Assembly: GCF_036971445.1 (NCBI RefSeq)
Contig: NC_091473.1
Span: 250,790,001-250,854,000 of the forward strand
Length of the DNA: 64,000 bases
Direction of reading: 5' to 3'
Source of the DNA: Narcine bancroftii
Taxonomy: Eukaryota
Shown here: positions 3,229-62,419 of the stretch, piece after piece
Layout of the letters: the number at the start of each line of letters is the position of its first letter
Numbering within the stretch: the stretch's first letter is position 1
Position numbers and translations under genes: made by a program
Notes under the pieces: generated by a model
Database searches by the model: none
Told to the model about the DNA's origin: nothing
The model's input: the letters and a program-made list of their open reading frames with translations, nothing else

Positions 3229-3399
3229 CTGCCCCACCGCTGTCTACCCCACCGCTGTCTACCCCACCGCCGACGGCAAGCAGCGACCCCCAACACTTAC
3301 CTTTGGCTGCAGGCAGCAACACCAACTCTCCGACATTGTTTTTTTAGGCCCAACTGTTTGCGTGACGTCATCACGCAGGGCTCCCCTGTCTACATTACA

Positions 3400-6030: not shown

Positions 6031-6313
6031 AAGCTGGATCAGGCATGGCAATGCCTTTAACCCAACCTCCCCCTTCTCCTTCTCCCCCAGATCATGTGCT
6101 TGAACAGAGGGACCAGCACCATCCCACCAGCTCAGGCCAGACTGTCGACAACGCTGTTGGGGAATTGAGCGAAGCAGTGGCCGCACCTGGCAACACGACT
6201 CCGGTGACCCCAATCCCGGTGCCACAGCGATCATGACGGATGGTCAGGCCCCCTGACTGGTACAGCCCCTAATCTCCATCCACCCTGGGGTCGGTTCTCA
6301 AAGAAGGGGTGAA

Positions 6314-16862: not shown

Positions 16863-16902
16863 ATGGACTTTGCATTCCTTTATTTTGTGATCTCCTTCTC
16901 AG
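16863..16902 (+). CDS. Gene 1 exon 1, signal peptide MDFAFLYFVISFS
   Basis: Kozak-like GCAATGG, hydrophobic codons, consensus donor CAG|GTAAGT, phase 1. Confidence 0.85.
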
Positions 16903-19900
16903 GTAAGTGACAACAATTACCCTTCAAGATTGGTAATATTGGTTTTTAGTGGAACTAGGGACAATTAGCAGAGGTGTGCTTGTCTAATTGTAAGTTTGTT
17001 CACATGAGCAGTTGAGTTAAGTGCATGGAAAACCTCACAGTCTCCATGATCGAACCTCTCCAATCTGCTCCTGCCTATGGTTTGCTCATATCTCAATGAA
17101 GGGCTCAGGTTTGAGTGTTGGTTATGTATCTTTATCTTCGCTTTGTGGCCTGTTGAGTTTCTCCGGCATCGTTTTTTTTACTGCTGGGTACATTGTTCCC
17201 ATAGAATCAAATGTATCTAACCGTGGGAACAGAAATATCTCAACCAGCACGTCCTACTCCTCTGGGTGGTTGTAAGAGTCTATTGTACACAAATTAGCTG
17301 CCATTACCACAAACATTGCACTCAAAAATGTTGTAATGGTTGCAAATTGCTTTGTTCGGACGATGATCCAAGCTTTCCTTGCGTCCTTCAGCTTTTGTGC
17401 ATTTCCTAGAACCATAGAACAAAACAGGCTCTTCAGATCTTCTAGTCTGTGTTGAAGTATTATTCTCCCTAGGTCCACAAGTCTGTACCCCAACCATAGC
17501 CCTCCATACCCCACTTCATGATTGAGCCCACATTCAACACTTCAGCTGGCAGCCTGTTCCACACTCCCACTACTCACTGTGTGAAGAGGTTCCCCCTCAT
17601 GTTCCCCCTTTCACCCTTAACCCATGTCCTCTGGTTTGTATTTCACCTACCCTAAGTGGAAAAAAAAGGTCTGTCTAGACCTCTCATAATTTTAAATACC
17701 TCTATCAAATCCCCCCCTCATTCTTCTACACACCAGGGCACAAAATCCTAAACTGTTTAACTTTTTCCTGTAACTTAATTCCTGAAGTCAGGGCAACATC
17801 CCAGTAAATCCTTTTCAAATAATTAAAACCATTTCAAGGACTGACATGTCTCAACGGAGTGGCACAGAATTGCCTGCTCTTAGTTTGTTTTTATCACTTT
17901 CTATTTGTTACTACTCTAACCCAGCCATTCTCAAAAGGCCACACCACATTTAAGTAAAAGCCTGGGTTTCTTTTCCCCTCACTCAACTTAAGTTACAGTG
18001 CCAGTGTTTGTACGTTCTCCCCGTGTCTGCCTGGGATTCCTCCACATGTTCCGGTTTCCCCTGCCATTCAAAACATAGGTTGTAGGTTAACTGGGGCATG
18101 AGCTTGTTGGCTGGAAGGCCTGCTACCGTGCTGTATGGCTGGAATAAAAAAATTAAATTTTTTTAATGTTTTTTTTATGTCATCTGAAGGAGAGAAGTAC
18201 AGAAGAAACCAAAACTTGACTGCTTCACGGGGAAGTGGTCCATTAAACTTTCAGCAATCCAGGGGAGGGGGAGGCACCATAGCCAAAAAAAAAGGTTTCG
18301 AATGGCTGTGGACTGTTCTGAACCATACAATCCGAGATTAAGAACGATTTAGTGATTATGCCAAAAGACGGTGCTAATTGATATTAAGAACTGTGAAATT
18401 ATCTCAAAGCATAGAACATTACTGGCCCCTTTGGCCCTTCTAGTCTGTGCTGAACCATTTTTTTACCTCCTCCCACTGACCTGCATCCGGTCTGTAGCCC
18501 TCAATACCTCTGCTGTCCATGTACCTGTCCAAATTCATCTTAAATGTTAAAATTGAGCCCTCATTCACCACCTCAGCTAGCAGCTCGTTCCACTCTCTCT
18601 GTGAAGAAGTTCCCCCTCATGGACTCTGAAGCCAAATACAATCTGCTGGGGGGTCTCAGCAGGTTGAGCATCATTAGTGGGAGTCTTGATGAAGTCCTCC
18701 AGCCGGAATCAACCATTCATTTCCTCCTGCTGATCGACCTGTTGAGTTCCTTCAGCTGATGGTGAGAACTTCTGAGTCCTTGGATTGGAGGAATGGCAGG
18801 TGATAGGGAGCGTATTTTCAAATTACCTTAAACTCTTTAGTATATGCTCAGATTTTTCTTGTTTAATATAATTTGGCCACTCCATTATGAAGTCTCATTG
18901 AGGGATGAGTATCCCGAAGAATTTCTCCTCTTGTCTGGTTCACTGCTCCCCTCGTTATACCCATTGCTCTCTACTACCCTCTCACCTGTATATCCAACCA
19001 TCAACCTACGCTCCTCCCCCTTCCCTTTCTTCCCTCCTCTCCTCTCCTCCTCCTCCCTCCCACCTCTACTTGTTTTTTCCAAATTCCTGACGAAGGGCTC
19101 AGAGCCAAAACGTTGACTGTCTTTTACTTCCTGCTGGCCTGCTGGATTTCTCCAGCGCGTTTATGTACCGCACCTGTTACAATTATTATATTTTAACATG
19201 TACTTTATCTTTTCACATTGAACAGTTACAAAAGCTGCTCTAAGTGGACCTCTTGAAGTAAATGGATCAGAGGGGCAATCAGTCAATATCACATGTACAT
19301 ATAGTACATTTTATCACCACCTTTTAAAGTACTGGTGCAAAGGCAAAGAGCAGTCAACCTGTACCATTCTAGTGAAGACCCGAGGCACCACAACGTCAAA
19401 TGCTGATGGCAGGATATCAATTACAGCTGATGATACAGCTGGGGAGTTTACAGTCACAATGAAACAGCTGACGTTGAGTGACCAAGGCTGGTATTGGTGT
19501 GCGATTACCACACGGTTCGTCAATCTGCATCATCCTGTAAACCTTAAGGTCATTGAAAGTAAGGTTTCAATCTACTTTTGCCAATTGTTCAGCAGAATTA
19601 CAATTCTATTAAGAAATGAAACTATTCACTGTTGGCATTAATTTCATGCTGCCTTGCATTAAGTTTTAGATCTTTAATATAAATTGATGCATATTTACCT
19701 GCACAGCATTCTTACAGTTGTTTACCTCATACTTAACAGGTCATCGGTCACTTTTGACAGCTCAATCACCAGGAAAGGAAATTGGGTAAAGGAAACATTT
19801 TCTAAATCTGCATTATTGTAGAGATTGAATGATATTTCACACTGTCCAAAGGATTATTATAGATTATTTGATGTTGAGAGAATTATACGTGGTCTCCATT

Positions 19901-21934
19901 CAAAATGTCAACCACCTCTCTGCCTCCACAGGTGCTGCCTGGCCCATTGACCCCCCCTCCCCCCACACCCACCCCCAGCAATTTGCCTTTGGCATAGGTT
20001 TCTCGAATACAGATTTAGAATCAAAAGTGATGTTACATACCACGTAAAAGTGAAAATTATGTGGTGGAAAATCAACAGCTTGTGTTGATGGCCCATGCCC
20101 TGATCTTGTAATTGCAATGTAAAAAATATCAACACTTGTTGACATTAAACCATGAAACTGGCAGAGGTTCATTGGTTTCTGATCATTTGTAGTTTCACTC
20201 AGAAATCCCCAATTTGACTATTGTGTCCTGCAGAGTTTGCTACCTTCCATCCCAACTCCACTACCCTCAAGAGAACTTGGTTAAATTGAGAAAAAAAAAT
20301 ACTTTGTGTATAAGGTGAGGGGAGGAACATTTAAGGGAGACATCAGGGGCAAGTTTTTTTTTTACACAGAGAGTAGTGGGTGCCTGGAAAACATTGCTGG
20401 TACAATAGACTCTTGGACAGGCACATGGATGCAAGAAAAATATAATGGGTGTGAGTTAGATTGTTGAGTAGGTATATATAAGTCAGCACAACATCATGGG
20501 CCAAGGTCCTGTACTGTGCTGTATGTTCCAAAAAAAAACTTTAAAGTAATAAAAAGAGGAGTGATTCCTTTTCTTGTGATACCACTTCTGGTTCTTCAAT
20601 GGCCCTTTTGGGAAGGAAATCTGCCATTCTTAAATAACCATTTAACAATTACAGCATAGAAACAGGCCAGTTTGGCCCTTCTAGTCCATGCTGAACACCT
20701 TCTCCCATCTAGTCCCATTGATCCACACCTGGGCCATGACCTTCCATATGTCTCCCATCCATATACCTATCCAATTTTTCCTAAAGTGTTAAAATCGATC
20801 CTGTATCTATCACTTGGCCAGGAGTTCATTCCACACTCCCACCACCCTCTGAGTGAAGAAATGCCCCCTCGTGTTTCCGCTAAACTTTTATCCCTTCAAT
20901 CTCAATCCATGCCTTATTGGAATCTCCCCCACTCAATGGAAAAAGCCTGACGCTACCTGTCCCCCTCATCTATGTATTGATTTAGAAAACTTTCCTGCCC
21001 CAGCCTAGGTGTTGCTTAGCACTCAATGAAATGGTCCAATTCCTTGCATCCAGTTTGCATGATGATCTGCTGGTTCATGAGATGCAGAAAAAAAACACAG
21101 AGACAGAACAAAGAGGTTAGAATTATGGGCAGCTCGCAAAAGGGTTGGGTAACACCTCACTTGGAGATTTGTTCTCTTTTTCTCAATCAGATATCCCTGA
21201 ATTTGAGTCAAGTGCTGGAGTTTCATCAGTCTGATTCTTGGGCTAAGCGAGATGGCCAAAGTAGATCGGTCCATGTTTCCTGGAAGGATGGTTAGAATAG
21301 ATAATAGGGGACTATTTTCTAGTGGGAGTTTTAAGACAAAAGGCATTCAGTAGTTTCAGGATAAAGCCACCAATAATTTAGAACAGAGGCAAGGACATCT
21401 TTATTTATGCAGGAGATTGTAGACTTCAAGAAAGTTCTAACCCAAGGACCTATGGATGCTCAGTCGATGAGTTAGATAGATATCACCCATCCTTTGTCAT
21501 GACTGGAGCTGCCTACCATAATAGTAATGGTGGACCACCTTCACCAAAAGGACTGCAGTGGTTCATCACCCACCTTATCAAAGGCAATTAAGGTTGGACA
21601 ATAGATGTTGACATTGACAGCAGTACCTTGATCAAGAAGATATTCAATGCTGAGACGATGGATGTTGACAGGGGGATAGGGCAGAAAAATGAATAGGATC
21701 AGTCATGATTTTACTGAATAAGTGGAGCTTATTGGGGTCGCCAAACACCATCTTGCTCTTGTAATCAAGTGAAAATAATGGGTCACACACATTTCTGTAC
21801 ATGGAGTAAGCTCTTCTAATTTTGCCTTTCCTCTCAGGAAAAATAATTCGAAGTACCAAATCATCTGGAGAATTTTACGTTGGAGTTTCCTTGCGATTCT
21901 AGTTGTCTGGGGCATAGTGACCGTAAAAATGTAA
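16863..21934 (+). CDS. Gene 1: CD300/pIgR-like (CMRF35-like) single-IgV receptor, activating type. join(16863-16902,19226-19558,19740-19785,21838-21934), 171 aa
   Basis: Phase-consistent GT-AG assembly gives MDFAFLYFVISFSVTKAALSGPLEVNGSEGQSVNITCTYSTFYHHLLKYWCKGKEQSTCTILVKTRG...DQGWYWCAITTRFVNLHHPVNLKVIESHRSLLTAQSPGKEIGKNNSKYQIIWRILRWSFLAILVVWGIVTVKM*. Confidence 0.82.
17408..17812 (-). mobile_element. CR1 3' fragment in gene 1 intron 1
   Basis: Antisense CR1 text (TTCCACACTCCCACTACTC; TCATAATTTTAAATACCTCTATCAAATC). Confidence 0.75.
18185..18307 (-). mobile_element. Fragment of a second MITE-like family (also about 46862-47058 and 63915-64000 on plus)
   Basis: Shared core TTTATGG(G)CCC..TTCCC.GT.AAG.AGTCAAGTTTT in three places. 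Confidence 0.6.
19226..19558 (+). CDS. Gene 1 exon 2, V-type Ig domain (CD300/pIgR-like)
   Basis: Acceptor TTGAACAG|, donor GAAA|GTAAGG, 333 nt, phase 1-1. Motifs V.ITC.Y, KYWCKG.....C, GRISI, F.V.M..L...DQGWYWC. Confidence 0.95.
19740..19785 (+). CDS. Gene 1 exon 3, short stalk (SHRSLLTAQSPGKEIG)
   Basis: Acceptor TTAACAG|GTCA is identical to that of the gene 2 stalk exon. Donor GG|GTAAAG. Phase 1-2 fits the TM exon. In-frame alternative acceptors at 19707 and 19761. Confidence 0.62.
21838..21934 (+). CDS. Gene 1 exon 4, transmembrane segment with arginines (KNNSKYQIIWRILRWSFLAILVVWGIVTVKM*)
   Basis: Strong acceptor TTTGCCTTTCCTCTCAG|, hydrophobic stretch, TAA at 21932-21934. Donors at 21931 (GTAAGC) and 21949 (GTATGT). 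Confidence 0.82.
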
Positions 21935-25080: not shown

Positions 25081-25162
25081 GGTGAGGGGATCTTTTATCA
25101 TATCGGGCTGCCCTGCAGATCATCTTCACCTTCAGCTCTCTGAAGAACACCCAGCCAACTGA
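25081..25162 (+). CDS. Candidate gene 1 terminal exon (VRGSFIISGCPADHLHLQLSEEHPAN*) or 3' UTR exon
   Basis: Strong acceptor TCTTTGGTTTTGTTTTCCAG|. In frame with the phase-2 donor at 21930/21931. No tyrosine motif. Confidence 0.45.
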
Positions 25163-33950: not shown

Positions 33951-33996
33951 ATGAAAATGAGTCCTACTCTTCTCCTTTCAATTGCCTTCCTCTCCG
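33951..33996 (+). CDS. Gene 2 exon 1, signal peptide MKMSPTLLLSIAFLS
   Basis: ATG, hydrophobic core, donor CCG|GTAAGA, phase 1; continues VVHA/DITGP. Confidence 0.85.
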
Positions 33997-39900: not shown

Positions 39901-41904
39901 ATAACTGGACCAAGTATGAAAATTGGAACTGTGGCGGATAAAGTGGAAATCATTTGCAAATTCAATAAGTATTTCAGAAATCATGAGAAGTACTGGTGCA
40001 AAGGATACTACCGGAGGAGCTGCGTTATTTTAGTGCAAACTCGTGGCCCCCAGATGAAAACCAGAGATGGCAGAATAACAATCGACGCTAATAATAAAAA
40101 TGGAGAACTTACAATAAAAATGCATAAATTAACAAAAAACGATAGAGGCTGGTATTGGTGTGGAATTGAAAGGCATCATCTTCTGGATCCGTTAAGTCCT
40201 GTGGAACTTAGAGTTCATGAAGGTAAGACACAGATTTACATTCACCAATGCGTATGGCATTCACCTCTTTTGTTCAATAAAATTTAATTTCAATTTTAAT
40301 TTAGACATACAGCGCGGTAACAGGTCCTTTCAGCCCATAAGCTGCCCAATTGCAACAAATTGACCTACAATCCCAGTATGTTTTCGACAGTGGGAGGAAG
40401 CCAGAGCCCTCCGGGAAATCCCACGCAGACACGGGGAGAACACACAGACTCCTTACAGACTGCGCAGGATTCCAACCCCCGTCCCAATCACTGGTGCTGT
40501 GACTAACCGCCACGCGAAATGTGTGGTCAGAAATGGAACCAGGCCATTAATTCTTAGGTCAGAATATCAGGTTACATGCTCACCATCCTGTGGGGTACCT
40601 TGCCTCTGACTCCCCAAAGCCTCGCCACAAGGTTCAAAGCAGGAGTGCGATGGAAACATCTTCACTTGCCCGGTGGCATTCAGCTCTGCTCTCATTAGGC
40701 AAACTGTTTTGGCAATCATTGAAAATAAAAAAAACTTCAGATCTGCTGATGCCGGCAAATCTTAAATATAATCAGAAATGATGGCAACACTCAGCAGGCA
40801 AGTTAGCATCCGCGGAAAGAGAAATCATTTCAGTTTGAAGACCAGTTGTCAAATTGGAAAAGTGAGAAAGCAAGGTAGTTTTATGTTGCAGAGGATGGGG
40901 GAGGACGGGAAGGATAAAGAAAATACCTGTATCTCTGATGGGGTGAGGCCAGGATTGTCATATTGATATGCCATTCATTGCGCCATCTGGTGGTTAGAAT
41001 AATAAAGACAGTTGGAGCATGGGAAAACAAATAATGGCATCTTCCTCTCCATCTGCTCTTATTCACAGTAGAAGATAGGCTCTAATCCAACACAAAACGC
41101 GTGAAACACTTAGCAAGTCGGGCAGTATCTGCGCAAAGAGAAACAGAGTTAATTTTCAAATCGATGAGCCTCTGTCGGAACTGGGGAAGTGAGAAAACCA
41201 GTTCGTCGGGACCCTTAGGTTGCAGAGAGGGTGGGGTGAGCTGGGGAGGGCAAAGGAAAATCTGTGAGATGGTGAGGCCAGGATTGCCAAAGTGATGTGC
41301 TCTTCAGGAAATTCTCTGAGTGACAAAATGGAAAGGAGGGAAAAGCAACGAGAGTCAGAGAAAAAAAAATCTCCAAAATTCACAGAGTTAGATGTCCCTC
41401 TCTTTATTTTTTCCCCATCAGAATGTTTTCTTTTATTAGAGTCACAGGCTGGACCAAATCTGTACACAGCATCCATGAATAACCATATTACATTTTTAAC
41501 AGGTCAGAAGTTACTTCCTTCAGACAAAGAAAGACTAAGGTAAACATCAACTGTCTTGTGATAGACTAGTACAAATATAACGTCTCTACCATATTATTCT
41601 AACTGGTTAAAAAGGTGTTACTGAGGCCATTCAGTCCAGTGGTTCTATGCACTTGCCCGCATTTAGAACAGTTTAGCACAGAGTGGATTTGCAGAGCAGA
41701 CTCGATGGGCTGAATGGCCTACTTCTGTTCCATTATCTTGTGGTTAATTTCATATTCCTATGCCTCGTTTATTCATATTTGATCAGAGGCCTTTCAAACA
41801 TTGTTACTGTCCCTCCCTCCCTCATCTCCTCTGGCAGCTTATTCAAGGTATAGTATATAAATATGGTATAATATATTTACCCCTCATCTCCTCTTGCAAC
41901 CTAT

Positions 41905-44900: not shown

Positions 44901-47900
44901 AGTGAAACCATCATTGTACAAATTTGTTATATGACCTTTCCTGTTTGACCCTGCTCTCACCGGCCAGTTTGTGACTTTCTTTCCCATAAAGGCTATCATG
45001 CCACAAGCCTGCCCCCAGTTTGAATCCAGGACAGTGTAAGTGACCAACACAGGGATGCTGTCCATCTTTTGCAAATAAAAGCCTTCAGTTTCAATTACTT
45101 CAGTCTTTGCACAATTGATTGTGCATCAATCACTTCACAGTTATCCAGATTGAACTCTATCTGCTACTTCTCCATCCAACTCTGCATCCTGTGTAACCTA
45201 CCGACAACCGTCTATATTATTCACAACACCTCCAATCTTTGTGTCATGCGTAACCTAACTGACTCACCCCCCTCCTCTTCTTAGTCCAAGTCATTTATTA
45301 ACATCACAAAGAGCAGGGGTCCCAGAACAGATGCCTACAGAATGCCTTTAGTCACTGACCTCCAGGGAGAATATGCTCTTGTCTTTCCAGGGTTAACTAC
45401 GACAGAGATTCACACAAACCCCTATTTTAATATTCCGTCAAGGCTCCTGATTAACCAGCAGCTGAGAAGAGGAAATTTACCCCCCAGTACTCCGACGGCA
45501 ATTTCATTCCATTCACCCCCAGTAAATGCGATGTCCATGCCTGCCCATAAATCATTAATGTGCCAAATTTTGGGTAACTTTCTGCTATTCACCTGCGTAA
45601 CATTGACTTGCTTAAGATGGGTTAACCCAAACCTTTAAGGTGAAACAGAAGAAATCTTGACCATATCATTTGAGTTTAGCTTCAGAGTTTTCAGAATTCA
45701 AAGAACGTTTTTCAAAGTAACCACCTTCAGCGTTTGGCCGAATTTGCATCCAAATATAACGTTATCATAAATGTGAGTATGAGCTAAAACAAGGACGTTC
45801 AATTGATAAGATGGTTATGGTTTTGTGATGTCACTGTTAGATCTAATCATAATATTACAGCCAGGAGTGAAACACAAAAGTTTGCAGACACTGCAGAAAT
45901 GCTGCGAGACCTGTTGAGTTCCTCCAGCATTTCTGTGTTTTCACATAGTTTTACCACCATGAAGGTTCTGTGCTAACGTCAGGGTGTGTCAGCTGACACG
46001 AAATTATCCAAATGGTTAACCGATTAAGAAATAAGAAAAACCACTGGGTTCCGGCAGAATCTGGGGAACAAGGAAGGGACTGGCTTTCATGGTTCTTGAG
46101 TCATGGTCCTTCTGCTAACAGGTGATGGGTAAAAAGGAGCGTCGAGTGTTAAAATAATTCTCGCCATAGTGATGCAGATGTCCCAGTGGATAAAACCATA
46201 AGACATGGGAGCAGAAATAGGCCATTCAGCCCATCAAGTCTTCCCCGCCATTTAATCATGAGCTAATCCATTTTCCCACTCAGCCCCACTGCCCAGCCTT
46301 CTCCCCATAACAGTGACTCTTTATCAGAGCGTCGTTGAACATTAAACTAATGTCGTTGCATTACTAACCCCATGTCATATTGGTTGCCTGGATTTAATGC
46401 ATGCAAAATCATCTCCAGCTTTCAGTTGTAGTTCCAAGTGCAGAATATAACAGGATGTTAGCAAGTGTGACTTGTTACTTGCTAACATCCCATTATATTC
46501 TGCACTGGGAAAACTCCATGTTATGGGACATAATTAGATAATTCCTCATCATATCGTTCGTGGACACATTTAGCTGATATACCTCTGTTTCTACCTGATC
46601 TTGATGATTCTTCTTTCTCTTTTTCATGAACCACCAAGATTTTTCGTAATACTTGGACTAGTCTTTGGAATATTAACAATGATGTCTCTTGGTCTCCTGG
46701 TCCTAGTTATCAAAAAAATTAGAAAGCACAGAAATAAAGGTAAGTTCAGAAGTGAACACACATTTTGTGAAGTAAGGTTAATCCTTGTTTCTAAGAAGCA
46801 ACTAACTAAATGATATGAAACAATCTTACATGTTTTTTGTCTCATTTGCTATGATTTAAATCAGCGATTGTCAGCCTCTATTTTCAGCTATGGCTCAAGG
46901 TTTATGGGCCCTCTTCCCTGTAAAGAAGTCAAGTTTTTGCTTCTTCTGTACTCCTCTCCCACCGACTACATACAAAAATGAAGTGAAAAGAAAAATGTGC
47001 GGTCACCCCCGGGAGGGAGGGGGTGGAGAGCATAGGGCCCCCATTGAGAAATGCATCTGTATTTGAGAACTGTATGCACATTGTTAGGCAAAAATAAAAA
47101 TCTCCTCATATTTTTATTTCAATAACCTTATATTTTTCATTTCATTCTACGAATGAGTCTCAATAAAGGAGTCAGCCAAATGCAATGGAACCTCCTTTAT
47201 CTCTTTGGAAGAATAGGAGTTCTGTTGTTCTGACCATTCAGAACAACATAATGGTGACAGGGTTGCCAATAACATTGCGACAACTTGTATGTGGCACAAA
47301 GCAACGTGCATTGTTTCTTGCTCATGGGTTTAAAATATTTGGAAGTCATGTTAGCAACACAAAGGTGATTTTTATTTGTTAATTAAAAGCGCTGCCTGTC
47401 ACCAGTTTGCCAGAGTCAAGGCCATCCTCCTGTTTGGTACTGTGGAAAGAAATGAAACAATTATATTTCCTTGAACAATTCTCAACACACCAGATGAATG
47501 AGTTAGTAACTATTCAGTAAGTCTTTTGTGAATAAGTATGCACTATTTAATTACCTGCTAAATAATCTTGGAACATAGAATATACAACTCTACAGCACAC
47601 TACAGGCCCTTCGGCCCTTGATGTTGTGCCATCTTGTATTCCTACCAAAAAATGTAGCACTAAACCCTTCCTACCCCATAACCCTCTATTTTTCTTTCAT
47701 CCATGTACCTGTCTAAGAGTCTCTTAAATGCCCCGAATGATTCAGCCTCCATCACCATGCCTGGAAAAGTGTTCCAGACACCCACAACTGCCTGTGTAAA
47801 AAAACTTATCCCTGATGCGTCCCTTAAACGTTCCTCCCTTCACTTTGTAGAGATGACCTTGGTATTTGGGATTCCTGCCCTGGGATAAAGGCACTGGCTG

Positions 47901-50900
47901 TCCACCCTGCCTAGGCCTCTCAGGTCTCCTCTCATCCTTCTTCAGTCCAAAGAGATCTTGTTGAATTTCTTGTAAATTAAATTTGTTGTCAATCTTTTAG
48001 GAGTTAGTTCCCTTTACATTTTCTTGGTTTGAGTTGTAGGATACTTAGTTAAGGCAAAGGGAAAATTATTCCAAAATTCCAATGAGGCCAATATCCCCAA
48101 GGTACAGTGAAGCTTTTTATATTCTGTATGAAATTTGTTCTGAGCTAAACAGCCCAATCTATTTAGACACCAAACCATATTAAATAAATATTGAGAAGCA
48201 CACCTAATCCTGCCCAATTAATGTGATTCACCTCATTCACATCTCACCAAAATGATTGGGTGTCCTTCATCGAAAAAAGATCTACTGTCTTGGGAAACGG
48301 CCCAGGAGGTTCACCAGGTTGATTCCAGAAATGAAGATGTTATCTATGAGGAGAGATTGAGTCGCCTGAGACTATATTCATTGCAGTTTAGATGGGAGGT
48401 GGGGGGCAAGGGGTTGGGGCTTCTGATAGAGGCATATATAAAAGGAGCAGGTAAGATAGAAATAGGGAAGCTTCCACTGGCTAGTGAGACTGGAACTAGG
48501 GGACAAAGCTCAAGATTTGGCAGAGTAGGTTTAAGTCAGAGATAAGGAGGAACTGCTTCTCCTAAAGAGCAGTGAATCTGTGGAATTCTGGAACTCTCTG
48601 CCTAAGGAAGTATTGGCTGCATTTAAGGCAAAGATGGAGGATTAAGGTTATGGGGAACAAGCATGGAACTGAGTGCTGACCTTAATGAATGGCCAACTCC
48701 TGCTTCTACCTCTTAACTTCTTAAGTTTTTAAATCTTTTTAAAATGTAAATTTAAATGTTTTAAATTTAAATTTGGACATACAGAATACAGCACAGTATT
48801 TCAGCCCACGAGTCTATGGCGTCCAATTTACACCCAATTAACCTGCACCCCCAGTAGATTTTGAACGGTGGGACAAAACCAGAGTTCCCGCGAAAGTCCA
48901 TGCAGACACCAGAAGAACGTACAAACTCCTCATGGACAGTGTGGGATTCAAACTCCCAGAGCCGATCGCTAGCACTGTTAAGACATTGCCCCAACTGTGC
49001 CGTCCGTGTTGCTAACCGTCCTTGTAACGATTCTTGACCTGGCTCAACTTTGAGTGTCAGCCTTTGCGTTTAATTATTCACAGGTCTGATTGAACCTGGG
49101 GAAGGCTGCAAAGTGGAATTTAAAGAGAAGCAGGAAGTTGAAGAGCAAGGATCAGGTGAGTGGACCAAAATTCGAGCAAGAACTGGAAAATCTCAAGGGA
49201 TATTTTAATCTGTGGTGACATCTACTGAAATGAAGGGGAGATAGAACAGGAAAATAGCCATGGGAAAATGGATCTGCAAAATGAAAGTTCAGCCCAAGAT
49301 TCGTCTCCCTGTGTGTGATTGCAAGTCAACAATAAATTATTGAAATTCAAACTGGAAGGCAAACATGAAAGTAGACATGAAGTGAATTAAAGATTAGAGA
49401 ATAAATGTGCAACCCAAAACCACAGCAAAAATCTTTCACCTTCAGAGATCGCAGATGTCAGAAATGTGAATTTTCCGGTTGTCTGAGACTCACTCTTACA
49501 CTGTCTAACTAATACACCGCATTAAGAATACACTGTTCAAAAGACAAAAGACAGTGCAAAATGTAAAGTAATTTGGAAAAAAATTCCTTCATCCTTAATT
49601 AGGTAAAGTTCGCTTTAATCAAGTAATTCCCGTATCCTAGAAAAGTTCAATTCAAATTCAAACCCAGGTTGCTGGTCTAGTAACAGTGTTGCATTAGCCA
49701 CTACACGAACCATGCCACCGTCAAAATGAACCCCTCCCCCAAGTTTACATAAAGCCTTACTAATATACTTAATACAATAAAGATTAAGAATCTTACTCGG
49801 CAGGGATAGGGAGACATTTTGGGAGAGTCACCGTAGCATCCGCCAGCTCTTCATCCCGGGTGCCGCCATTTTATTCAAACACAACTTTATTCAAACAGCT
49901 GCTGAGGGCAGGGCATGACCGGGGCCCTCTACTGGCTGAATGTTGTGTGTTCCTTCAGAGAACACTTAAAAATTTAAGCTTTTATTTAAAACCTTATTTA
50001 TTTTTAAATGGTTTATTTCTTTCTTTCTTTTTTTTGCCGGTTGAGTTTCTGGTTGACTGACTGGCAGATAATGGGGACATTACTGTATCAAAACAGTTGG
50101 ATGCGAAAAGAATATTTCCATTGAGAAGTGGACCCGTATTTTTCATAACCACAAGTTATCTCAAAGCATTTGACAAAAAATTGATAATTGTTGAAATGTT
50201 ATCATAATGATAATTAAAGAAAAATGGCAACCCATATGAGAATAGCAAATGGAAATGACCACATCACTGGTGACATTGCACAACGATATTGGGCGTAACT
50301 CTGCCATTCTTCAGAATGGTGCCTTGGGGATCCTTTTTGTCCATCTGCACAAATCATACCCCAAAGCATTTCTTCTAATAGGCAGTGTAGCCTCAGCCTA
50401 GAACATGGAATGGTCACAACAGCAAATGAGGGAATTTGCCCCATCATATTTGCACCATCTCTCAACCATTACAAATTCCTAGTTCCACATCACTCCCTTT
50501 CTCTATAACCTTGTCAATCCTTATTCACCAAAATATTTATCCAATCCCCTCTTGTAGACCACAATGGAACTGATGTCCTCCACAACACCTGGCAATGCAG
50601 TCTAGATTCTAACCGCACACTGCATAACAAAGCCTTTTCTCTTCCATTTTATTTTAGTCCTTGACCATTCCACCTACAACAGCAGTCTCCCACTTTCTCC
50701 AGACCCCTCTTTATTTCATGTATTGTAATTTGATCAAATCTCCCCTCAGTCTCTCTTCTCCAAACAAACTATTCCCAGTCCCTCAAAACTATACTGAGAC
50801 CCAAATCCCACTCATAAATCTCCTCTGGATTCTCCTTGGAGCCAACCAATGAGACATTCCTATTCAGTCCTATTTTATATCCATGATAAACTCTGTGTGA

Positions 50901-53900
50901 TATCTTACAGGCATACAAAAAGGCATTTAGCAATAACCTGACCAGAACCCAAATATGAAAATAATTGTACAATTCAATTCACAGTTGATGGAAACTGAGC
51001 TAAGCAACAGTATCAGAATATAAATATATTGTGATTTAAGTTTACACATATTAATTGGCTTAAGTTTGCCTAACAATACATATCTCTGTTTAATATGAAT
51101 GGCTTTGATACAAACATTTACTGCCAGCAATGGCACACAATGGTTGAAATGTTGTCTGCAAAGACTAGTTCATAATTTTTGTGAAAATTGACACCATATA
51201 TAACCATTACCAAATAACAATTACAGAACAGAAACAGGCAATCTCGGCACCTCTAGTCTGCACTGATATGTGAGCTCCACTAGTCCCACCTACCTGCTCC
51301 CTGCCCATAGCCCTCCAATCCTCTCACATCCATGCACCCATCCAACCTTCTCTTAATTGGCAAAATTGACCCTGCTGCAGCCACCTCTTCCAGAAGGTCA
51401 TTCCACTCAGCCACCACTCTCTGAGTGAAGAAGCTCCCTCTCATGTTATTGCTAAACTTTTGCCCCCAACCCTTAACTTATGACGCCTCGTTCCAATCTC
51501 ACCTCCCCTCAAGGGGAAGAGCCTATTCACATCTACTCTATCTGTCCCCCTCATAATTTTAAATACCTCTATCAAATCCCCCCTCAACCTTCTATGCTCC
51601 AATGAATAAAGACCCAGACTGCTCAGCTTTTCCATTAATATTTAAGTGTGCACATTAAAAAGCAGTAAATTTTAGAAATTGCATATGTCAGAACTCGAAA
51701 ATAATTGTTTCCAGTTGGCCTTATGTATTGCTTTTCCCTTTATGTTTTAGACACCCAGGAGAGGGAGCCAACATTAGAGAATTCTATTCCTAAATCGAAC
51801 TCCACGGTAAGGCTGCAAACTCTGGTTCTTTTAAGTGCTACGATATCATTTAAAGGATGCTTTGCAATGGTGCTCTTTGTACACATCCATGATATCTCCG
51901 TCAACAATTTTTATGAATCTACTGCCATCAAAGTAGTAAAGCAATCTCTTGTCACTTTTCAGCGGGGGTAATCACATCTTTACATCGAACTGCAGGATAC
52001 GTTAGGTCACGTGGTCAAAAGCTGACTGACTGTTTCTTATCTTGAGAGGGTGCCTCCTGGTTCTTCAGTAGGAGGAGACAGCCTCTTAGCCCCCTCGCAA
52101 CCTTGCATGTCTCTGTAAGTGGGCCGCAGTGGCATAGCCGATGGAGCTGCTGTCTCACTCCCCCAGCTAACTCCTGGAACTGTCCATGTGGAGTCTGCAT
52201 ATACTCCCTGTGTAGCTTCCCCCAGCTGCTCTGCTCCTGCACCCCAAAGACGTTCATGTTTCTCACCATTAGAAACAATTCTGCTTTGCCGCCAGTTCCC
52301 TGGGCACAATTTGTGCACCTTGTCCTCAATCTGCTTGCTTCCTGTCCATTCACTTAACCCTTTGGACTCCTTGTCCTGTTTTTCAGGGGCTACCAACAAG
52401 CGCATATACTCTGCGTGCCTGTTTGCCAGGATTCATTTTATAACTGGCCAGCTGGTTTGCACTGGTGTTGGTAAAGCTTTACCCATGGATCCAGTCCAGA
52501 TTATATATTATGAAAGGTTAAAAATGGCCAGAGGCCAGAGTTAACCTGTCTGCGCCTGTCCGCAGAAGTTTTGACCCTTCTCGTCCTTCTGCCACTCCCC
52601 TGATTTGCTGCAACTGCTCACTTTACACTTCCACTGAGTTCATCTGTGTAAATCATAGCCACTCACGACCTGCGGTGCCTGAGTGGTGACAATCTACCTC
52701 CATTCCTCCCTCCTCTCTCTACCTGTCACCCATCCATCCTGATGCGTTAACCCTAATCCAATCAGCTCCTTAATAATTTATGTAATGTGGGAGGAATTCT
52801 CACACCAATGTCATTCCTGCTCTCAGGGGCATGAAAGCATGCGCTTGAACTTTGTCCCTACTATTTTTTTTGCCTCCGTAAATGTTGCTTGAACACAGCC
52901 CAATCCCATTTCTTCAACGTCAAGATCATTCCTCACCACTGCCTTGTATCATCCTAAATTTTATCAATTGACCATTCCTCCTTAAATAACTTCTCTTTCT
53001 CTCTCTCTCCCGCTGCAATTTTCCGACAGCAACGTTTCTACCTTCAATTTAATCTTTTCTTCCTCCACATTCTTGCACTCACACAAAAACTTGGGTAATT
53101 TCAATCCCACAATGCAATTACCCGTTTCATATTTGCCTGATCGCAGCGCCGGCGCCTGCAGACACCGGGGATTGTACTAAGGGTCAAGACCGTCAAACCC
53201 CGGTGTGATGACGTTATCTGACGCCAGCGTTGAGCTGATTTTGCTTTCACGCTTGGCACTTTAAAGGCCGATTGGCGGTTAATTCCTGGGACCACTTGCA
53301 AGCATGAAAGGAGCTTTTATTTATTGCTGCGGAACTCTTCTGTCACTGCCAGTTGCACTCTTATCCATGCTTTTAAATGTTCTTACAAGATAGAAGGAGG
53401 CCATTTCAGCCCATCAAGTTTATGCCAGCCTACAGAGTAATCCTACTGAGTCAAGTTTACAGTCACATGTATTGGGGTACAGTGAGAAAGTTTGTTTTGC
53501 AAGTGATCCAGCTACTCAACTCACGCATGGAACAGCAGTTGAATGACAATACTGAAAGCAAAGTTACAGAGAGGTCGGTTAGATTATGAATGTAAGATTT
53601 GTTCAGGAGACTGATAACGGTGGGGAAGAAAATGCAAAAGATTGCAACAACTTGCAACGTTAGTTATCTCCAGCTCACTGTCCAATGCATGTTGTAAAAA
53701 CACACAGTTCTGGAGAGACTCAGCAAGTCAAACAGTGTCCTTGATGTAGCCAAGGCAGAGATAGAGAACTGATGTTTCGGGCTTGAGCCCTTTGTCAAAG
53801 TATGAGAAAATGCTGGTGAGCGTCAAAATGAAAGAATGGAGGTGGAAGGCAGGAGATGATAGTTGGAGAAGGGAGGGAGGGGACAGCAGCACTGGGTGGA

Positions 53901-55640
53901 GAGGGGGGAGGGCTGTGTAGGTGAAGGAACTGGAAAGGTTTAACTTATGCCTAATGCAAGTTACTGCATCAGCAGTTTTTGAATTGCCCCCTGAACTTTT
54001 CCTTTAAACCAAAAACTTTGCCCTTACACGATACCCACTTCCTGCCAGCCCTCGTACAATTGTCCGTGCTTCACTAAAAAGAAATGCAAGAACACAGATA
54101 AACCCATTTTGACGTTTAAGCCATGTGGGTTAGGGATAAAGTGTTGGCCAGGTCATTGATGAGCGCTCTCCGTCTCTTTTTCAATTTAGAACCATGGGAT
54201 TCTTATGCCCATTTGAGAATGGAAGGAGTTTTCAGTTTAACACTTGTGACTTTTAGACTTTTACCCTGCCTTGAAGTTTCTCATCTGTCACAGAAGTACA
54301 CCTATTCCCCAGAATTTAGGTGCTGGGCTTTGAAGCTGGTTTTGAAGCTAATATACTTGAGGTTGCATCCAAGATATGAAAATGCTGTACTTTTATAAAT
54401 CAATGATGTACTTTTATATAAAACTAACTCTGGTTCTGCCAGTTTTGTTCTTCCTGTGAACCCAACAGTCGAGCTGGAACTATTTGTATTTTGTTTTCTG
54501 AAGAGGAATTTGTTGATTAATCCAAGTTTGAGGTTGAGTTCTCACATTACAGTAAAAAAAAACCCTGGCATCCTGCACCTGTGGGTATTTGTAGATGCCA
54601 GATAAGTGAATTTTCCGGTTGCTTGAGATAGTGTGTTGTGCGATTGGTGATCTAACGGCAAGGCGCACAAATTTTATACTCCCGTATTTTTGACTTCTCT
54701 ATTTTCCGCGATTGTCTTACTGGCTTCTTGAGGATGCTAGCTACTTAAATTCTGGATAAGAAGGGTTTTACTGTACAGTATATATCTTACAATATAGAAG
54801 GAGGTCAGTTAGCCCGTCAGCTTAACCTCATCTCTGCCATTCCCTTCATTTTCTCATCAGCCCTACCAAGATTCTTCCACCATCCTGAGGAATTTGAAAA
54901 TTTTATTTAATTTCACACATGCATTAAAAAAAATCTTATACATAAATTTCTTCTTCAAAAGTATTAAAATTAATACATAGTGATTTTTAAAAAATTCCTC
55001 CACACCCCCCCCCCAACAGCCCGATAGGAAAGAAGGAATAAAATGAAAAAAAGAAGAGAACATCTGGATAATATTTATAAAAATTTACTAAAACTATCAA
55101 ATAAAATCTAGCATATCATCCTGAGGAATTTGAGTTGGAATGTCAGGTATTCTCTGACGTTCCAAAGACATGCCAATTAAATGTACCATGTGGCATGTCT
55201 TTGGAATGTCAGAGAATACCAGAAGAAACTTATACAGTCATTGGGAAACCATACACACTGCACAGGACAGCACTAGAGGTTAAGGTCCATAGAGCTGTGA
55301 AACAACAGCATTGCTAATTCTGAGATCCAATTCCCTATTTAGAATATCTTGAAAAGTTTTTTTTTTCCCTGCTGCAAGAAATCTTCTATATTTTCATTTT
55401 GATAACTTTACTGATGAACTAACCCATTGCCTCATTCTCGGTCTTCAGTTGTCCAAAGAGAAGGAAGCAGGAGTGACTTACGCCAGCGTGATGATTCAGC
55501 CCGGTGACAACCCACAGGAAGACTCTTGCATGTATGCTAATGTGAACCCTTCCAACAGTCAGGACAAGAACAAGCCTCCAATTACTGACCCTCCAACTTC
55601 GGAACCAATAGAGTATTCTACAATTGCATTCAAAAAGTAA
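33951..55640 (+). CDS. Gene 2: CD300-like (CMRF35-like) single-IgV inhibitory receptor. join(33951-33996,39887-40222,41503-41539,46639-46739,[49084-49155],51751-51806,55449-55640), 255 or 279 aa
   Basis: All junctions are GT-AG and phase-matched (1,1,2,1,[1],0). Signal peptide, IgV, short stalk, uncharged TM, basic stop-transfer KKIRKHRNK, tail with VTYASV, MYANV and IEYSTI. Confidence 0.9.
34996..35287 (+). mobile_element. Solo LTR
   Basis: Ends TGTGGTG...CACCACA, perfect 5-bp TSD AATGT, internal GATATAAG and ATTAAA. Confidence 0.88.
35890..36330 (-). mobile_element. CR1 3' fragment
   Basis: GAATTCCACAGATTCACCACTCTCTG and TTCATAATTTTATA (antisense CR1). Confidence 0.7.
36545..36916 (-). 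mobile_element. Composite hAT element, inverted relative to the 15068 copy
   Basis: Same two units and spacer, reverse-complemented; TSD ATGTAGAT/ATGCAGAT. Confidence 0.88.
38300..39645. mobile_element. Cluster of V-SINEs (about 38300-38515 minus, 38645-38880 minus, 38960-39180 plus, 39480-39645 minus)
   Basis: Repeated V-domain core (GGGAGAAC.TGCAAACTC.TTACAGAC or its complement). Confidence 0.75.
39318..39400. repeat. Two-copy tandem duplication of about 42 bp
   Basis: AGATGGTCCCTTGCCCAAT...GCCCAGAGTGCCAAA occurs twice. Confidence 0.85.
39887..40222 (+). CDS. Gene 2 exon 2, V-type Ig domain (CD300/pIgR-like)
   Basis: Acceptor TTTTCACACTTGCAG|, donor GAAG|GTAAGA, 336 nt. VEIICKF, EKYWCKGYYRRSC, DGRITI, DRGWYWCGIE. 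Confidence 0.96.
40300..40515 (-). mobile_element. V-SINE (HE1-like)
   Basis: CCCACGCAGACACGGGGAGAACACACAGACTCCTTACAGAC core. Confidence 0.8.
41503..41539 (+). CDS. Gene 2 exon 3, short stalk (GQKLLPSDKERLR)
   Basis: TTTTTAACAG| and AG|GTAAAC; 37 nt; bridges phase 1 to phase 2 as the TM exon requires. Confidence 0.75.
41906..41954. repeat. (CT)n microsatellite
   Basis: About 24 CT units. Confidence 0.97.
43232..43648. mobile_element. Probable Tc1/mariner-type MITE
   Basis: TACCATATAT..CGTGTAATT and ATTACACAAGGAAATATAGTA form imperfect TA-flanked ends around a GC-rich core. Confidence 0.45.
44188..45375 (-). mobile_element. CR1 fragment split by a solo LTR
   Basis: Antisense CR1 ORF2 text on both sides of 44898-45128. 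Confidence 0.75.
44898..45128 (+). mobile_element. Solo LTR inserted in CR1
   Basis: TG...CA ends, 5-bp TSD ATCTC/ATCAC, CATAAA and AATAAA (45074). The CR1 sequence rejoins when it is removed. Confidence 0.7.
46432..46511. repeat. Inverted repeat/hairpin of about 80 nt
   Basis: AGTGCAGAATATAACAGGATGTTAGCAAGT pairs with ACTTGCTAACATCCCATTATATTCTGCACT (28/30). Confidence 0.9.
46639..46739 (+). CDS. Gene 2 exon 4, transmembrane (FFVILGLVFGILTMMSLGLLVLVI KKIRKHRNK)
   Basis: Pyrimidine tract then CAAG|; donor AAG|GTAAGT; 24 uncharged residues followed by a basic cluster. Confidence 0.92.
47570..47955 (-). mobile_element. CR1 3' fragment
   Basis: ACAGGCCCTTCGGCCC tail motif and antisense ORF2 end. 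Confidence 0.75.
48265..48720 (+). mobile_element. CR1 3' fragment
   Basis: YEERLSRLRLYSL; GTGAATCTGTGGAATTC. Confidence 0.75.
48775..49020 (-). mobile_element. V-SINE (HE1-like)
   Basis: AGAACGTACAAACTCCT core with matching head and tail. Confidence 0.75.
49084..49155 (+). CDS. Gene 2 candidate cytoplasmic exon (GLIEPGEGCKVEFKEKQEVEEQGS), symmetric phase 1
   Basis: TTTAATTATTCACAG| and CAG|GTGAGT; 72 nt; open in the required frame; purine-rich. Confidence 0.6.
51200..51630 (-). mobile_element. CR1 3' fragment
   Basis: LGLYSLEHRRLRGDLIEVFKIM. Confidence 0.88.
51751..51806 (+). CDS. Gene 2 cytoplasmic exon (DTQEREPTLENSIPKSNST)
   Basis: TTTTCCCTTTATGTTTTAG| and ACG|GTAAGG; 56 nt; phase 1 to 0. 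Confidence 0.85.
54898..55116 (-). mobile_element. Short L1-like 3' end insertion with 17-bp TSD
   Basis: CATCCTGAGGAATTTGA at 54881-54897 and 55117-55133; TTTATT at the left end. Confidence 0.8.
55449..55640 (+). CDS. Gene 2 terminal exon with ITIM-type motifs
   Basis: CTCGGTCTTCAG| phase 0; LSKEKEAGVTYASVMIQ...CMYANVNP...EPIEYSTIAFKK*. Confidence 0.93.
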   Translation: MSKEKEAGVTYASVMIQPGDNPQEDSCMYANVNPSNSQDKNKPPITDPPTSEPIEYSTIAFKK

Positions 55641-60514: not shown

Positions 60515-62419
60515 CCTCCTAAACCTTTGATCAGTTGTTTGCAGAAAGGTCATATTAATGGTATTTTTAAGAACGGCAGGCATCTGTCCATTTCTCATGA
60601 ATTTTAGATTAAGATGTCCAATTGCTTGGAGAGCGGAGAAAATGCAGAAGGCCTCTGTGAAAATGTGTGCTGAAGTTGGATGGGAGAGGCTTCTCAGAGA
60701 TGAAGGGAGTAGGAACAGGGTGAGAAGCAGTAGATGAAGTTGGGAGGGGAGACATGAAATCTAAGTACATGGGCTAAAAGGCCGATGCTGTTTCATAAAC
60801 TCTAGATTGAATGGTGTCATCAGAAACTGAAGCTGCACATGATCTTTCTGTTGAATCCCATCTGACCCTTATTCTCTGATTAATTTCACCAGGAAATCAG
60901 ACTTGATGTATCCAAAGTTCAACACCATGCATTGAACACACACACCTGTAGAGATTTAAGTCTGAAGTATGCAAGGTGAATCAATTTAGAATGACCTTTC
61001 AATAACAATAATATTTAATTTAGAATGCAATTGATGAAGAGGTAAATGGTTGCTCCATGATTGCCAATTTGGGGTATGTCACCAATCCACATCCAGGTAA
61101 TTGGATACTTGAGTTTCTTGTCTTAATCAGTGTTATAATTTTAATCTAAGCTCCTTGCCCAGCTGATCAATGATTGCTGAGAGACAGGATTGACCTGTAT
61201 GACATAGAGTCTTACATTTGAGTGATATTATAAAGATATGACGTACAAGTGTCAAACACACAGTCAGAGGCTGAGAATGAACTGAACCGGTACAATAGAG
61301 AGCCAGGAGGATGATAGGCCTGCATTTGTGCTAAGGTTGATAATGAATTGTGTTCGAAACTCCTTTGCAGCAATGAATATTCCCGATAGAAGCAACGCTA
61401 ACATCTGTATTTTTGCAAATCCTATTAGTTTTGTCAACTTGAACCCAGTATTAACTCAAAGAATTATGTTTTAAAATTACTGACTTTTAAAGGATGATTT
61501 CTGTGTTCAATGTATTCGAAATGAAAATATGATTTTCTTCATGTATTTTCTGGGGTACTAATGACAGGCAAGCTCACATTTTTTTAAACTCTAACTTTAC
61601 AGATGAAGAGCATTTCTACCCTCCAGGCACCGTTTTTTAAAAATCAATTTTCTGACCACTTTTCATGATTTAGTGACTGCTTTTTCTCTGCTCTCGTGAC
61701 AAAATTAAAATTCTACAAATACTTGCTTGGAGTATGGAGCTTTCCCTGCTAACAGCCATCACTCAGATGCATTCGGAAGTCACAGGTTAACTAAGCATTT
61801 GGCTTCACTAAGTGAGATTCCGGTCACATTTTAGATTTCGAGATCTTGCTTATTGTCACAGGTACCCAAGATGAATGAAAAGCTTTGTTTTGCATTAGAT
61901 CCAGGCATCACAAAAAAGTCACCACACAACTCAGCAGGTCTCACACCAGCATTAGGAGGTAAAGATTACTGCAATCACGGCGTTTGCAGACTTCCATGTT
62001 CCATATCTTTACCTCCCATGGGCACAGTGAGACCTGCTGAGTTCCTCCAGCAATTTTGTGTTTTCACTGCAATCACAGCATTTGCAGACTTCATCGCAAT
62101 CTAGTCACCCCTCTCTGACATAATGTTGGATTAAAAAATTTGCGGAAAACCACATGCAATAACTGACGTGATTACCTATAATGGCGGTCAAACCGGGTTT
62201 CCGATCCTTTCACAAGCACATCATTGACTCAGTAGAGCTCTGAAGGGACTGAGAGTTAATCTGATGTTCCTGTTGTGGTTGAAGCGCAGTTCCCATCACG
62301 GTCTTAATTCATTTTCTTTCTTTGTTTTTAGTGATGTGGTTTCCTGTGAGTGAAACTGGTGTTGGAGTCGTACTGCTGCTTCAAACAATTCTTGTGTGAA
62401 ATAGACAAGCAGAGAGAAT

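What the first reader, a model, noticed from the sequence alone, without database searches (positions are those of the whole stretch)
55449..55640. Three-tyrosine tail mirrors mammalian CD300LF
Seen: VTYASV (canonical ITIM), MYANV (YxN, Grb2-type) and EPIEYSTI near the C-terminus, all in one exon. From memory, human CD300LF ends with ISYASL, TYCNM and EPTEYSTI in the same order. Inference: this ITIM/YxN/terminal-motif cassette may date to the jawed-vertebrate ancestor, which would be notable for a fast-evolving family. The YxxM PI3K feature is absent here.
Basis: partly seen in the sequence, partly recalled or inferred. Interest (0 to 1): 0.7.

Follow-up and report, generated by a model that had tools for sequence, protein, structure and literature searches.

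The report
Ray immune receptor's ancient tyrosine tail
This exon ends a ray gene of a known immune-receptor family and carries three tyrosine motifs that likely dock signalling proteins to dampen the cell; the same three-motif ending recurs in sister genes and in bony vertebrates, so it is likely ancient, but the gene is likely not the direct counterpart of human CD300LF.

Summary
The three motifs are real. They lie in one spliced last exon (55449-55640) of a single-IgV receptor that RefSeq already names 'CMRF35-like molecule 1'. The match to CD300LF rests on the motifs alone: spacing is 18/27 versus 14/21, and motif-kept shuffles score as well (p=0.2). The IgV falls outside amniote CD300 (AU p=0.002). 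The locus lies between G-alpha-t/G-alpha-i and AHCYL1-like genes, not at the SLC9A3R-like/otopetrin block. The closest named tetrapod IgV is fused to ADORA3, the TMIGD3 position. Shark orthologues (3 of 3) lack the middle tyrosine. Still, the triple ends three genes of this ray's cluster and recurs in shark paralogues, paddlefish, turtle and a bird. The ray and paddlefish tails align beyond the motifs. So an old, family-wide last exon is likely; CD300LF orthology is not. Unrelated ITIM receptors could not be tested as a control. The scan noted shark/skate clusters of this family (MDIRs) before, on other DNA.

The parts
55449..55640 (+). Last coding exon (residues 217-279, phase-0 acceptor) holding all three tyrosine motifs; 3' UTR runs on beyond 56600
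   Evidence: joint 51806>55449 in 4 of 4 contig sets
55473..55490 (+). ITIM VTYASV (Tyr227); VTYA(S/T)V kept in all 12 named orthologue species with a tail (9 batoid, 3 shark)
55530..55544 (+). YxN motif MYANV (Tyr245); YDNV in 8 other named batoid species, tyrosine absent in 3 of 3 sharks
55602..55625 (+). Terminal motif EPIEYSTI (Tyr272); I/L at Y-2 in batoids, T (switch-motif form) in sharks
33951..33996 (+). Leader exon
   Evidence: exact peptide mapping of P0003
39887..40222 (+). IgV exon of CD300/pIgR type with four cysteines (C39, C53, C61, C107)
41503..41539 (+). Very short stalk exon (about 12 residues, no mucin-like region)
46639..46739 (+). Transmembrane exon without a charged residue in the membrane span
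49084..49155 (+). Optional 72-nt cytoplasmic exon; skipped in short isoforms of two rays, absent from the three shark models
   Evidence: its end appears as the loose end in runs X2 and X4
51751..51806 (+). Short cytoplasmic exon spliced to the last exon
60893..60935 (+). Alternative terminal exon of RefSeq isoform X1 (13 extra residues); all three motifs are kept
   Evidence: model P0013 only; not covered by the reads laid
16863..21934 (+). Neighbouring paralogue with a sister IgV, an arginine in the membrane span and no tail: likely activating partner

Best explanation
The exon is the spliced last exon of a single-IgV receptor gene in a ray's cluster of CD300/pIgR-type genes, and it likely encodes an inhibitory tail inherited from an old family-wide last exon rather than a tail specific to CD300LF. 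Likely mechanism (inferred from mammalian and teleost receptors, untested here): ligand binding by the IgV clusters the receptor and a Src-family kinase phosphorylates the tyrosines. The two outer motifs (Tyr227 and Tyr272, 45 residues apart) would together hold the tandem SH2 domains of SHP-1/SHP-2 and damp activating signals, for example from the tail-less, arginine-bearing neighbour. The middle pYxN would add a Grb2 site that tunes the output; it is dispensable, since the shark orthologues lack it. Without YxxM there would be no direct PI3K p85 arm. The gene's IgV lineage likely leads to TMIGD3-position genes in tetrapods, while amniote CD300s form their own clade.
For: Shown: exon, splice joint and motifs. 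Four-cysteine V-set domain with best solved relatives pIgR and CD300. Outer motifs kept in 12 of 12 named elasmobranch species with a tail. Three cassette-bearing last exons in the cluster, each with a phase-0 acceptor. Triple in 8 of 26 two-motif family tails versus a shuffle mean of 0.7 (0 of 2000 reach 8). Orthologue-tail profile versus paddlefish p<0.001 and versus shark paralogue P0036 p=0.001 with motifs and up to four upstream residues held fixed. Mammalian tail profile versus P0036 p=0.001-0.028 and P0143 p=0.006-0.042. Isoform pairs put a mammalian exon boundary about ten residues before the same ITIM (inferred). IgV outside amniote CD300. Near-reciprocal best IgV with the caecilian ADORA3-fused model. 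Literature passages: SHP-1/2, Grb2 and PI3K use by CD300f (PMC7247439, PMC4415817); MDIRs of skate resemble CD300/TREM/pIgR (PMC3031540); TMIGD3 shares its locus and first exon with ADORA3 (PMC5133659).
Against: The beyond-motif signal to mammals fades when five residues each side of each tyrosine are held (P0036 p=0.09, P0143 p=0.15). Eight tails were tested under three masks and the pattern was chosen after seeing the data. An unrelated teleost receptor (catfish LITR 1.1b) also combines YxN, ITIMs and an ITSM, in another order (PMC4810170 passages), so such motif sets arise repeatedly. The node joining the ray gene with lungfish and caecilian has only 89/88 support. The wider 11-row cartilaginous clade plus amniote CD300 is not rejected (p=0.07). 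No ADORA3 lies in the 464 kb read. No binding partner or ligand was tested.
Confidence: 0.62

Rival explanations
1. Convergence: each lineage rebuilt ITIM + YxN + terminal motif independently in a fast-evolving tail, because SH2-binding motifs are short and repeatedly selected; only the IgV is homologous.
For: This gene's tail is no closer to mammalian CD300LF than motif-kept shuffles (human p=0.07, elephant 0.49, dog 0.75, bat 0.80, profile 0.21). Spacing varies from 14/21 to 18/27 and beyond. In the shark orthologues one base change separates Ser or Cys from Tyr at the middle site, so batoids could have gained it. YxN, ITIM and ITSM co-occur in unrelated LITRs (PMC4810170).
Against: Same order, same last-exon position and phase in three ray paralogues. 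Beyond-motif match of cartilaginous-fish and paddlefish tails. Shark and ray paralogues have ITIM-to-YxN spacing of 14-15, as in amniotes.
Confidence: 0.28
2. The gene is the direct (one-to-one or co-) orthologue of mammalian CD300LF, and the cassette is conserved along that line.
For: Same motif order; terminal motif 7 of 8 identical to human; RefSeq's automatic name; the wider clade is not rejected as sister to amniote CD300 (p=0.07).
Against: AU p=0.0018 for the 7 orthologue rows plus 15 amniote rows. Human CD300LF ranks 142nd among 714 stored IgV domains for the ray query, the caecilian 25th. No CD300-type IgV in 400 kb upstream of the EBP50_C gene on C8; all 18 genome matches of a turtle CD300 fall in the C11 cluster. 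Two upstream motifs, the mucin stalk and the 14/21 spacing are missing.
Confidence: 0.07
3. It is a pIgR-like immunoglobulin transporter and the tyrosines are sorting or endocytosis signals rather than SH2 sites.
For: Top solved-structure hits are pIgR (inflated by five domains). YxxV/I also fits the endocytic Yxx-hydrophobic consensus (recalled).
Against: One IgV only; the query lacks the two-residue insertion seen in pIgR domain 1 (alignment); no pIgR-type SYRT tail motif; the IgV does not group with pIgR domains.
Confidence: 0.03

Closest known systems
Mammalian CD300LF (CD300f, CLM-1, CMRF35-like molecule 1; human P0221)
   Same: One four-cysteine IgV, uncharged TM, last three tyrosine motifs in the same order, probably in one last exon; RefSeq gives the ray protein this name.
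   Different: IgV 36% identical and in another clade; no mucin stalk; lacks the proximal ITIM and both YxxM sites; spacing 18/27 versus 14/21; terminal motif has I, not T, at Y-2; different genomic block.
[quoted passage not shown] 2006; seen only as described in PMC3031540)
   Same: Cartilaginous-fish multigene family of activating/inhibitory receptors resembling CD300, TREM and pIgR.
   Different: The MDIR sequences were not fetched, so which MDIR this gene matches, if any, is untested.
TMIGD3-position receptor (caecilian model P0011, IgV-TM-tail fused behind ADORA3; human TMIGD3 as described in PMC5133659)
   Same: Best named tetrapod IgV match (44%); tail has VTYSSV and TEYSTI; the ray cluster is flanked by genes that in human lie at 1p13 (positions recalled).
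   Different: Caecilian tail lacks YxN and has only 22 residues between its motifs; no ADORA3 next to the ray cluster; tree support 89/88; no mammalian TMIGD3 sequence was obtained.
Paddlefish 'CMRF35-like molecule 1' (P0103) and shark 'pIgR-like' paralogues (P0036, P0143)
   Same: Full ITIM-like / YxN / terminal triple; tails align with this gene's orthologues beyond the motifs.
   Different: Different IgV lineages; several are multi-domain or fused models; paddlefish has YxNM.

Membership tests
CD300/pIgR-type IgV receptors (MDIR-like in cartilaginous fish) | V-set domain with the extra C-C' cysteine pair | tested here: met
   PF07686; C39, C53, C61, C107 invariant with human CD300LF; best solved relatives pIgR and CD300
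CD300/pIgR-type IgV receptors (MDIR-like in cartilaginous fish) | Clustered genes with ITIM-tailed and charged-TM members | tested here: met
   20 IgV-profile ORFs in the 464 kb region; three tailed genes and arginine-TM genes P0115 and P0299
CD300/pIgR-type IgV receptors (MDIR-like in cartilaginous fish) | Sequence match to the named skate MDIR proteins | not tested
   Accessions seen in PMC3031540; sequences not fetched; the original paper is not held
CD300LF orthologue | IgV within or sister to the amniote CD300 clade | tested here: not met
   Amniote clade 100/98 excludes it; AU p=0.0018 for 7 orthologue rows; p=0.07 for the wider 11 rows
CD300LF orthologue | Locus in the 17q25-type block (cluster at human 17q25 per PMC7247439; SLC9A3R1 and OTOP neighbours recalled) | tested here: not met
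   EBP50_C and otopetrin matches on C8; no IgV in 400 kb upstream there; cluster on C11 between G-alpha genes and an AHCYL1-like gene
CD300LF orthologue | Five-tyrosine tail with proximal ITIM and YxxM | tested here: not met
   Three tyrosines, no YxxM; upstream YxxM in 86 of 93 mammalian tails
CD300LF orthologue | Last three motifs in order ITIM, YxN, terminal | tested here: met
   triple in 81 of 93 mammalian tails
CD300LF orthologue | Tail similarity beyond the motifs and 14/21 spacing | tested here: not met
   p=0.21 against the mammalian profile; spacing 18/27
CD300LF orthologue | Lipid (phosphatidylserine) binding; SHP-1/2 and Grb2 recruitment | not testable with these tools
   Needs binding assays
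TMIGD3 lineage | IgV closest to the ADORA3-linked IgV of tetrapods | tested here: inconclusive
   Best match in both directions among named proteins; tree node 89/88, unstarred
TMIGD3 lineage | Adjacent to ADORA3 | tested here: not met
   No adenosine-receptor match in the 464 kb read; 3 adenosine-receptor hits classified were A1, A2b and A2a-like
TMIGD3 lineage | Same conserved chromosome block | tested here: inconclusive
   Flanks and markers found; their human map positions (1p13, 1q32) are recalled, and the G-alpha subtypes are not resolved
pIgR | Four or five IgV domains and the SYRT tail motif | tested here: not met
   One IgV; tail motif absent

The most novel reading that the evidence does not exclude
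Cartilaginous fish keep the whole CD300/pIgR/TMIGD3 family as one ancestral cluster on a 1p13/1q32-type chromosome block. An ITIM-YxN-terminal last exon already existed there in the jawed-vertebrate ancestor and was handed to several IgV lineages. One lineage moved and founded amniote CD300LF, whose closest tail in this ray is a different paralogue (C11:250,988,368; spacing 15/22). The flagged gene's lineage survives as TMIGD3, an orphan that was once an ITIM receptor.
Probability: 0.3. Interest if true: 0.55.

Novelty: new member of a known kind. Interest (0 to 1): 0.3.

Why it matters
The gene is already annotated, and ITIM-type CD300/pIgR-like receptors of cartilaginous fish are a described kind, so the receptor itself is ordinary. 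The comparative point has some value. A dual inhibit-and-tune tail may predate the split of sharks and bony vertebrates. The single ray cluster may be the source locus of CD300, pIgR and TMIGD3, which would give the little-studied TMIGD3 an immune-receptor ancestry. The case also shows that the automatic name 'CMRF35-like molecule 1' should not be read as CD300LF orthology.

Tried and rejected
1. Unrelated ITIM receptors as a control: no tool gave such sequences. The tail found 0 PDB matches at E<=10 and no usable ESM Atlas hit; neither shows novelty. 2. The tail-only protein search gave 6 hits among 9 candidates, all batoid, none mammalian; weak evidence, as the search needs shared words. 3. 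The IL10 family search found nothing and its control rang nowhere: uninformative. The 7tm_3 search put no match near C8:334 Mb, so the 17q25-type block may be rearranged, and the 400 kb scanned may not be the exact CD300 site. 4. My ab initio stalk candidate at 45391-45573 is not in the RefSeq models and was dropped. 5. The orthologue tail profile was faulty (whole proteins in some rows); it was rebuilt, and only searches are used for it. 6. The first flank-exon shortlist was too strict; it was redone (top 150 of 174 candidates read by eye, 9 sent to Pfam, 7 matched). 7. ADORA3 next to the cluster was expected from the caecilian model and not found. 8. Joints upstream of 51751 were not checked against reads; they rest on RefSeq models and one loose end. 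No listed holder is on record as RNA. 9. The ESM Atlas did not name TMIGD3 for the caecilian part. 10. Ten paper searches showed no paper on this tail in sharks or on a TMIGD3 link; the library lacks most subscription papers, and Cannon 2006 and 2010 were not held. No supplements were read. 11. No fold or complex prediction was run: phosphotyrosine binding cannot be modelled with these tools.
Full report
OBSERVATION. The plus strand at 55449-55637 encodes 63 residues with VTYASV, MYANV and EPIEYSTI, then TAA. The exon follows a phase-0 acceptor. Contigs of 4 of 4 runs (one study; RNA is the tool's guess) join 51806 to 55449 at GT..AG and continue past the stop. There is no YxxM in the tail.

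THE GENE. The IgV exon at 39887-40222 matches P0003 at 100%; its source calls it 'CMRF35-like molecule 1 isoform X2 [Narcine bancroftii]'. Exact mapping gives seven coding exons: leader, IgV, a 12-residue stalk, an uncharged TM, an optional 72-nt exon, a 56-nt exon and the tyrosine exon. A second model adds 13 residues from 60893-60935. The domain is V-set, its best solved relatives are pIgR and CD300, and four cysteines are invariant with human CD300LF.

ORTHOLOGUES. Nine named batoid species keep all three tyrosines. The three shark orthologues with a tail (Heptranchias, Scyliorhinus, Stegostoma) keep the ITIM and the terminal motif but have Ser, Cys or Leu in place of the middle tyrosine. 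Conversely, sharks have T at Y-2 of the last motif (the switch-motif form; consensus recalled), and batoids have I or L. So no orthologue seen carries the full mammalian form of all three. The last exon is as conserved as the IgV (57-80% versus 55-74% over 9 rows).

THE HUMAN COMPARISON. The triple is in 81 of 93 mammalian CD300LF-like tails; YxNM at the middle site is in only 40 of 93. Spacing is 14/21 in the five mammals measured and in turtle, and 18/27 in the ray gene. The ray tail beats full shuffles of the human tail (0 of 500). With the motifs held in place it does not: human p=0.07, elephant 0.49, dog 0.75, bat 0.80, lemur 0.23, and 0.21 against a profile of 82 mammalian last exons. 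Profile-to-profile probability was 64% for this gene's orthologues versus mammals, 88% for four paralogues versus mammals, and 94% for orthologues versus paralogues. The likeness of this gene to CD300LF therefore rests on the motifs.

THE CASSETTE IS FAMILY-WIDE. Of 150 representative hits, 68 had a TM and tail, 26 had an ITIM-like plus a terminal motif, and 8 of those 26 had YxN between them (shuffle mean 0.7, 0 of 2000 as high; pattern chosen after seeing the data). The eight are a skate-type orthologue, paralogues from Heptranchias, Carcharodon, Hemitrygon and this species, paddlefish, turtle and cuckoo. In this ray's own cluster three last exons carry it (window 55449; C11:250,781,113; C11:250,988,368), each behind a phase-0 acceptor. 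There were no hits in 400 kb of C8 or in 5 shuffles. The third has spacing 15/22, closer to mammals than the flagged gene.

SIGNAL BEYOND THE MOTIFS. The orthologue profile matches paddlefish (p<0.001, <0.001, 0.044 under three masks) and shark P0036 (0.001, 0.001, 0.028). The mammalian profile matches P0036 (0.001, 0.028, 0.093) and P0143 (0.006, 0.042, 0.148), but not paddlefish, cuckoo or the three batoid tails. This gives a chain from the ray gene through shark paralogues to mammals. It is moderate evidence, weakened by multiple tests and by the lack of an unrelated-receptor control.

TREE. 63 IgV domains chosen from 714 stored ones, 107 columns. Left out were most mammalian near-duplicates and most unnamed fish domains. 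Amniote CD300 forms a clade (100/98). The ray gene groups with its orthologues (100/98), then with its arginine-TM neighbour and chimaera/Mustelus domains (99/92), then, unstarred, with lungfish, catfish and the caecilian domain (89/88). Forcing the 7 orthologue rows together with the 15 amniote rows is rejected (AU p=0.0018). The wider 11-row clade (p=0.07) and a paralogue clade (p=0.20) are not rejected. By BLAST, the caecilian domain ranks 25th and human CD300LF 142nd for the ray query.

LOCUS. The window is C11:250.79-250.85 Mb, inside a cluster with 20 IgV-profile ORFs over 250.73-251.01 Mb. All 18 genome matches of a turtle CD300 lie in it (counts are lower bounds). Upstream sit a transducin-type and a Gi-type G-alpha gene, tail to tail; downstream sits a gene closest to adenosylhomocysteinase 2. 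Further along are chitinases (254.3-254.5 Mb), the ATP synthase b subunit (255.18) and SARG (255.52); ADORA1 is at 230.8. In human these map to 1p13 and 1q32, the TMIGD3 and PIGR regions (recalled). An EBP50_C gene and an otopetrin, recalled neighbours of the 17q25 CD300 cluster, are on C8, with no IgV in the 400 kb scanned upstream of the former. The best named tetrapod hit, P0011, is a caecilian ADORA3 model fused to IgV-TM-tail with VTYSSV and TEYSTI. Human TMIGD3 shares its locus and first exon with ADORA3 (PMC5133659, passages). No ADORA3 was found beside the ray cluster, so the TMIGD3 link is a lead.

MECHANISM. Shown: architecture, motifs, conservation pattern, and a tail-less sister gene with a TM arginine 12 kb upstream of the leader. 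Inferred: phosphorylation, SHP-1/2 binding through the two outer tyrosines, an optional Grb2 site, no direct p85 arm. The basis is CD300f (PMC7247439 and PMC4415817, passages) and the YxN-Grb2 consensus (PMC4810170, passages). The ligand is unknown.

WHAT IS KNOWN. Skate MDIRs are described as activating/inhibitory receptors resembling CD300, TREM and pIgR (PMC3031540, passages; the original paper was not held). Earlier notes of this scan reach the same family for other shark and skate clusters; none covers this window. Ten paper searches showed nothing on this tail or the TMIGD3 link, within a library that lacks most subscription papers.

VERDICT. Real feature, new member of a known kind. The age inference is plausible at family level; the CD300LF mirror is not specific to this gene. 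Interest 0.3.

Noticed in passing
window 16863-21934 (+), alternative end 25082-25162: Paralogue (P0115/P0298) whose IgV is sister to the flagged gene's, with a WRILRW membrane segment and no tail: a likely activating partner. Similar proteins in Mustelus and an unnamed record.
   Followed up: partly
L066:4368-4523 (C11:250,988,368): A third cassette-bearing last exon with spacing 15/22, nearly the mammalian 14/21; its own IgV and TM exons were not mapped.
   Followed up: partly
L052:1113-1385 (C11:250,781,113): Last exon of paralogue P0074 with two ITIM-like motifs, YANV, YQN and a terminal motif.
   Followed up: partly
L059-L064 (C11:250.92-250.97 Mb) and L046/L049: Several IgV exons are present in identical translated copies (recent tandem duplication or assembly duplication).
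   Followed up: no
L050:8623-9060 and L058:2056-2400: Two IgV exons broken by in-frame stops.
   Followed up: no
L068:6493-7444, L069:3094-3204: Divergent two-IgV gene with a TM exon at the end of the cluster; an earlier scan note says it lost its tail.
   Followed up: no
P0001, P0002, P0036, P0143, P0011: Several RefSeq 'pIgR-like' or 'adenosine receptor A3' models look like two adjacent genes fused by annotation (a TM and tail followed by a second leader or domain).
   Followed up: partly
L073:3085-3534 (C11:20.78 Mb): A degraded second copy resembling exon 1 of the ADORA1 gene at C11:230.8 Mb (by eye).
   Followed up: no
L018:1390-2451 (C27:74.2 Mb): Intronless adenosine-receptor-like ORF of 353 codons, closest to A2a but not clearly any of the four human types.
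   Followed up: partly
window 3113-6236 (+): Fragmented LTR retrotransposon-like pol region (protease, RT, RNase H, integrase recognised by eye); many LINE-like fragments elsewhere in the window.
   Followed up: no
P0221, P0084, P0009: Pfam's SIT family (PF15330) matches the CD300LF TM and tail strongly (125 bits), turtle (37) and the shark orthologue weakly (21.5, below cut-off), but not the ray protein.
   Followed up: partly
window 56196: C>A difference in the 3' UTR in 3 of 4 runs, probably an allele.
   Followed up: no
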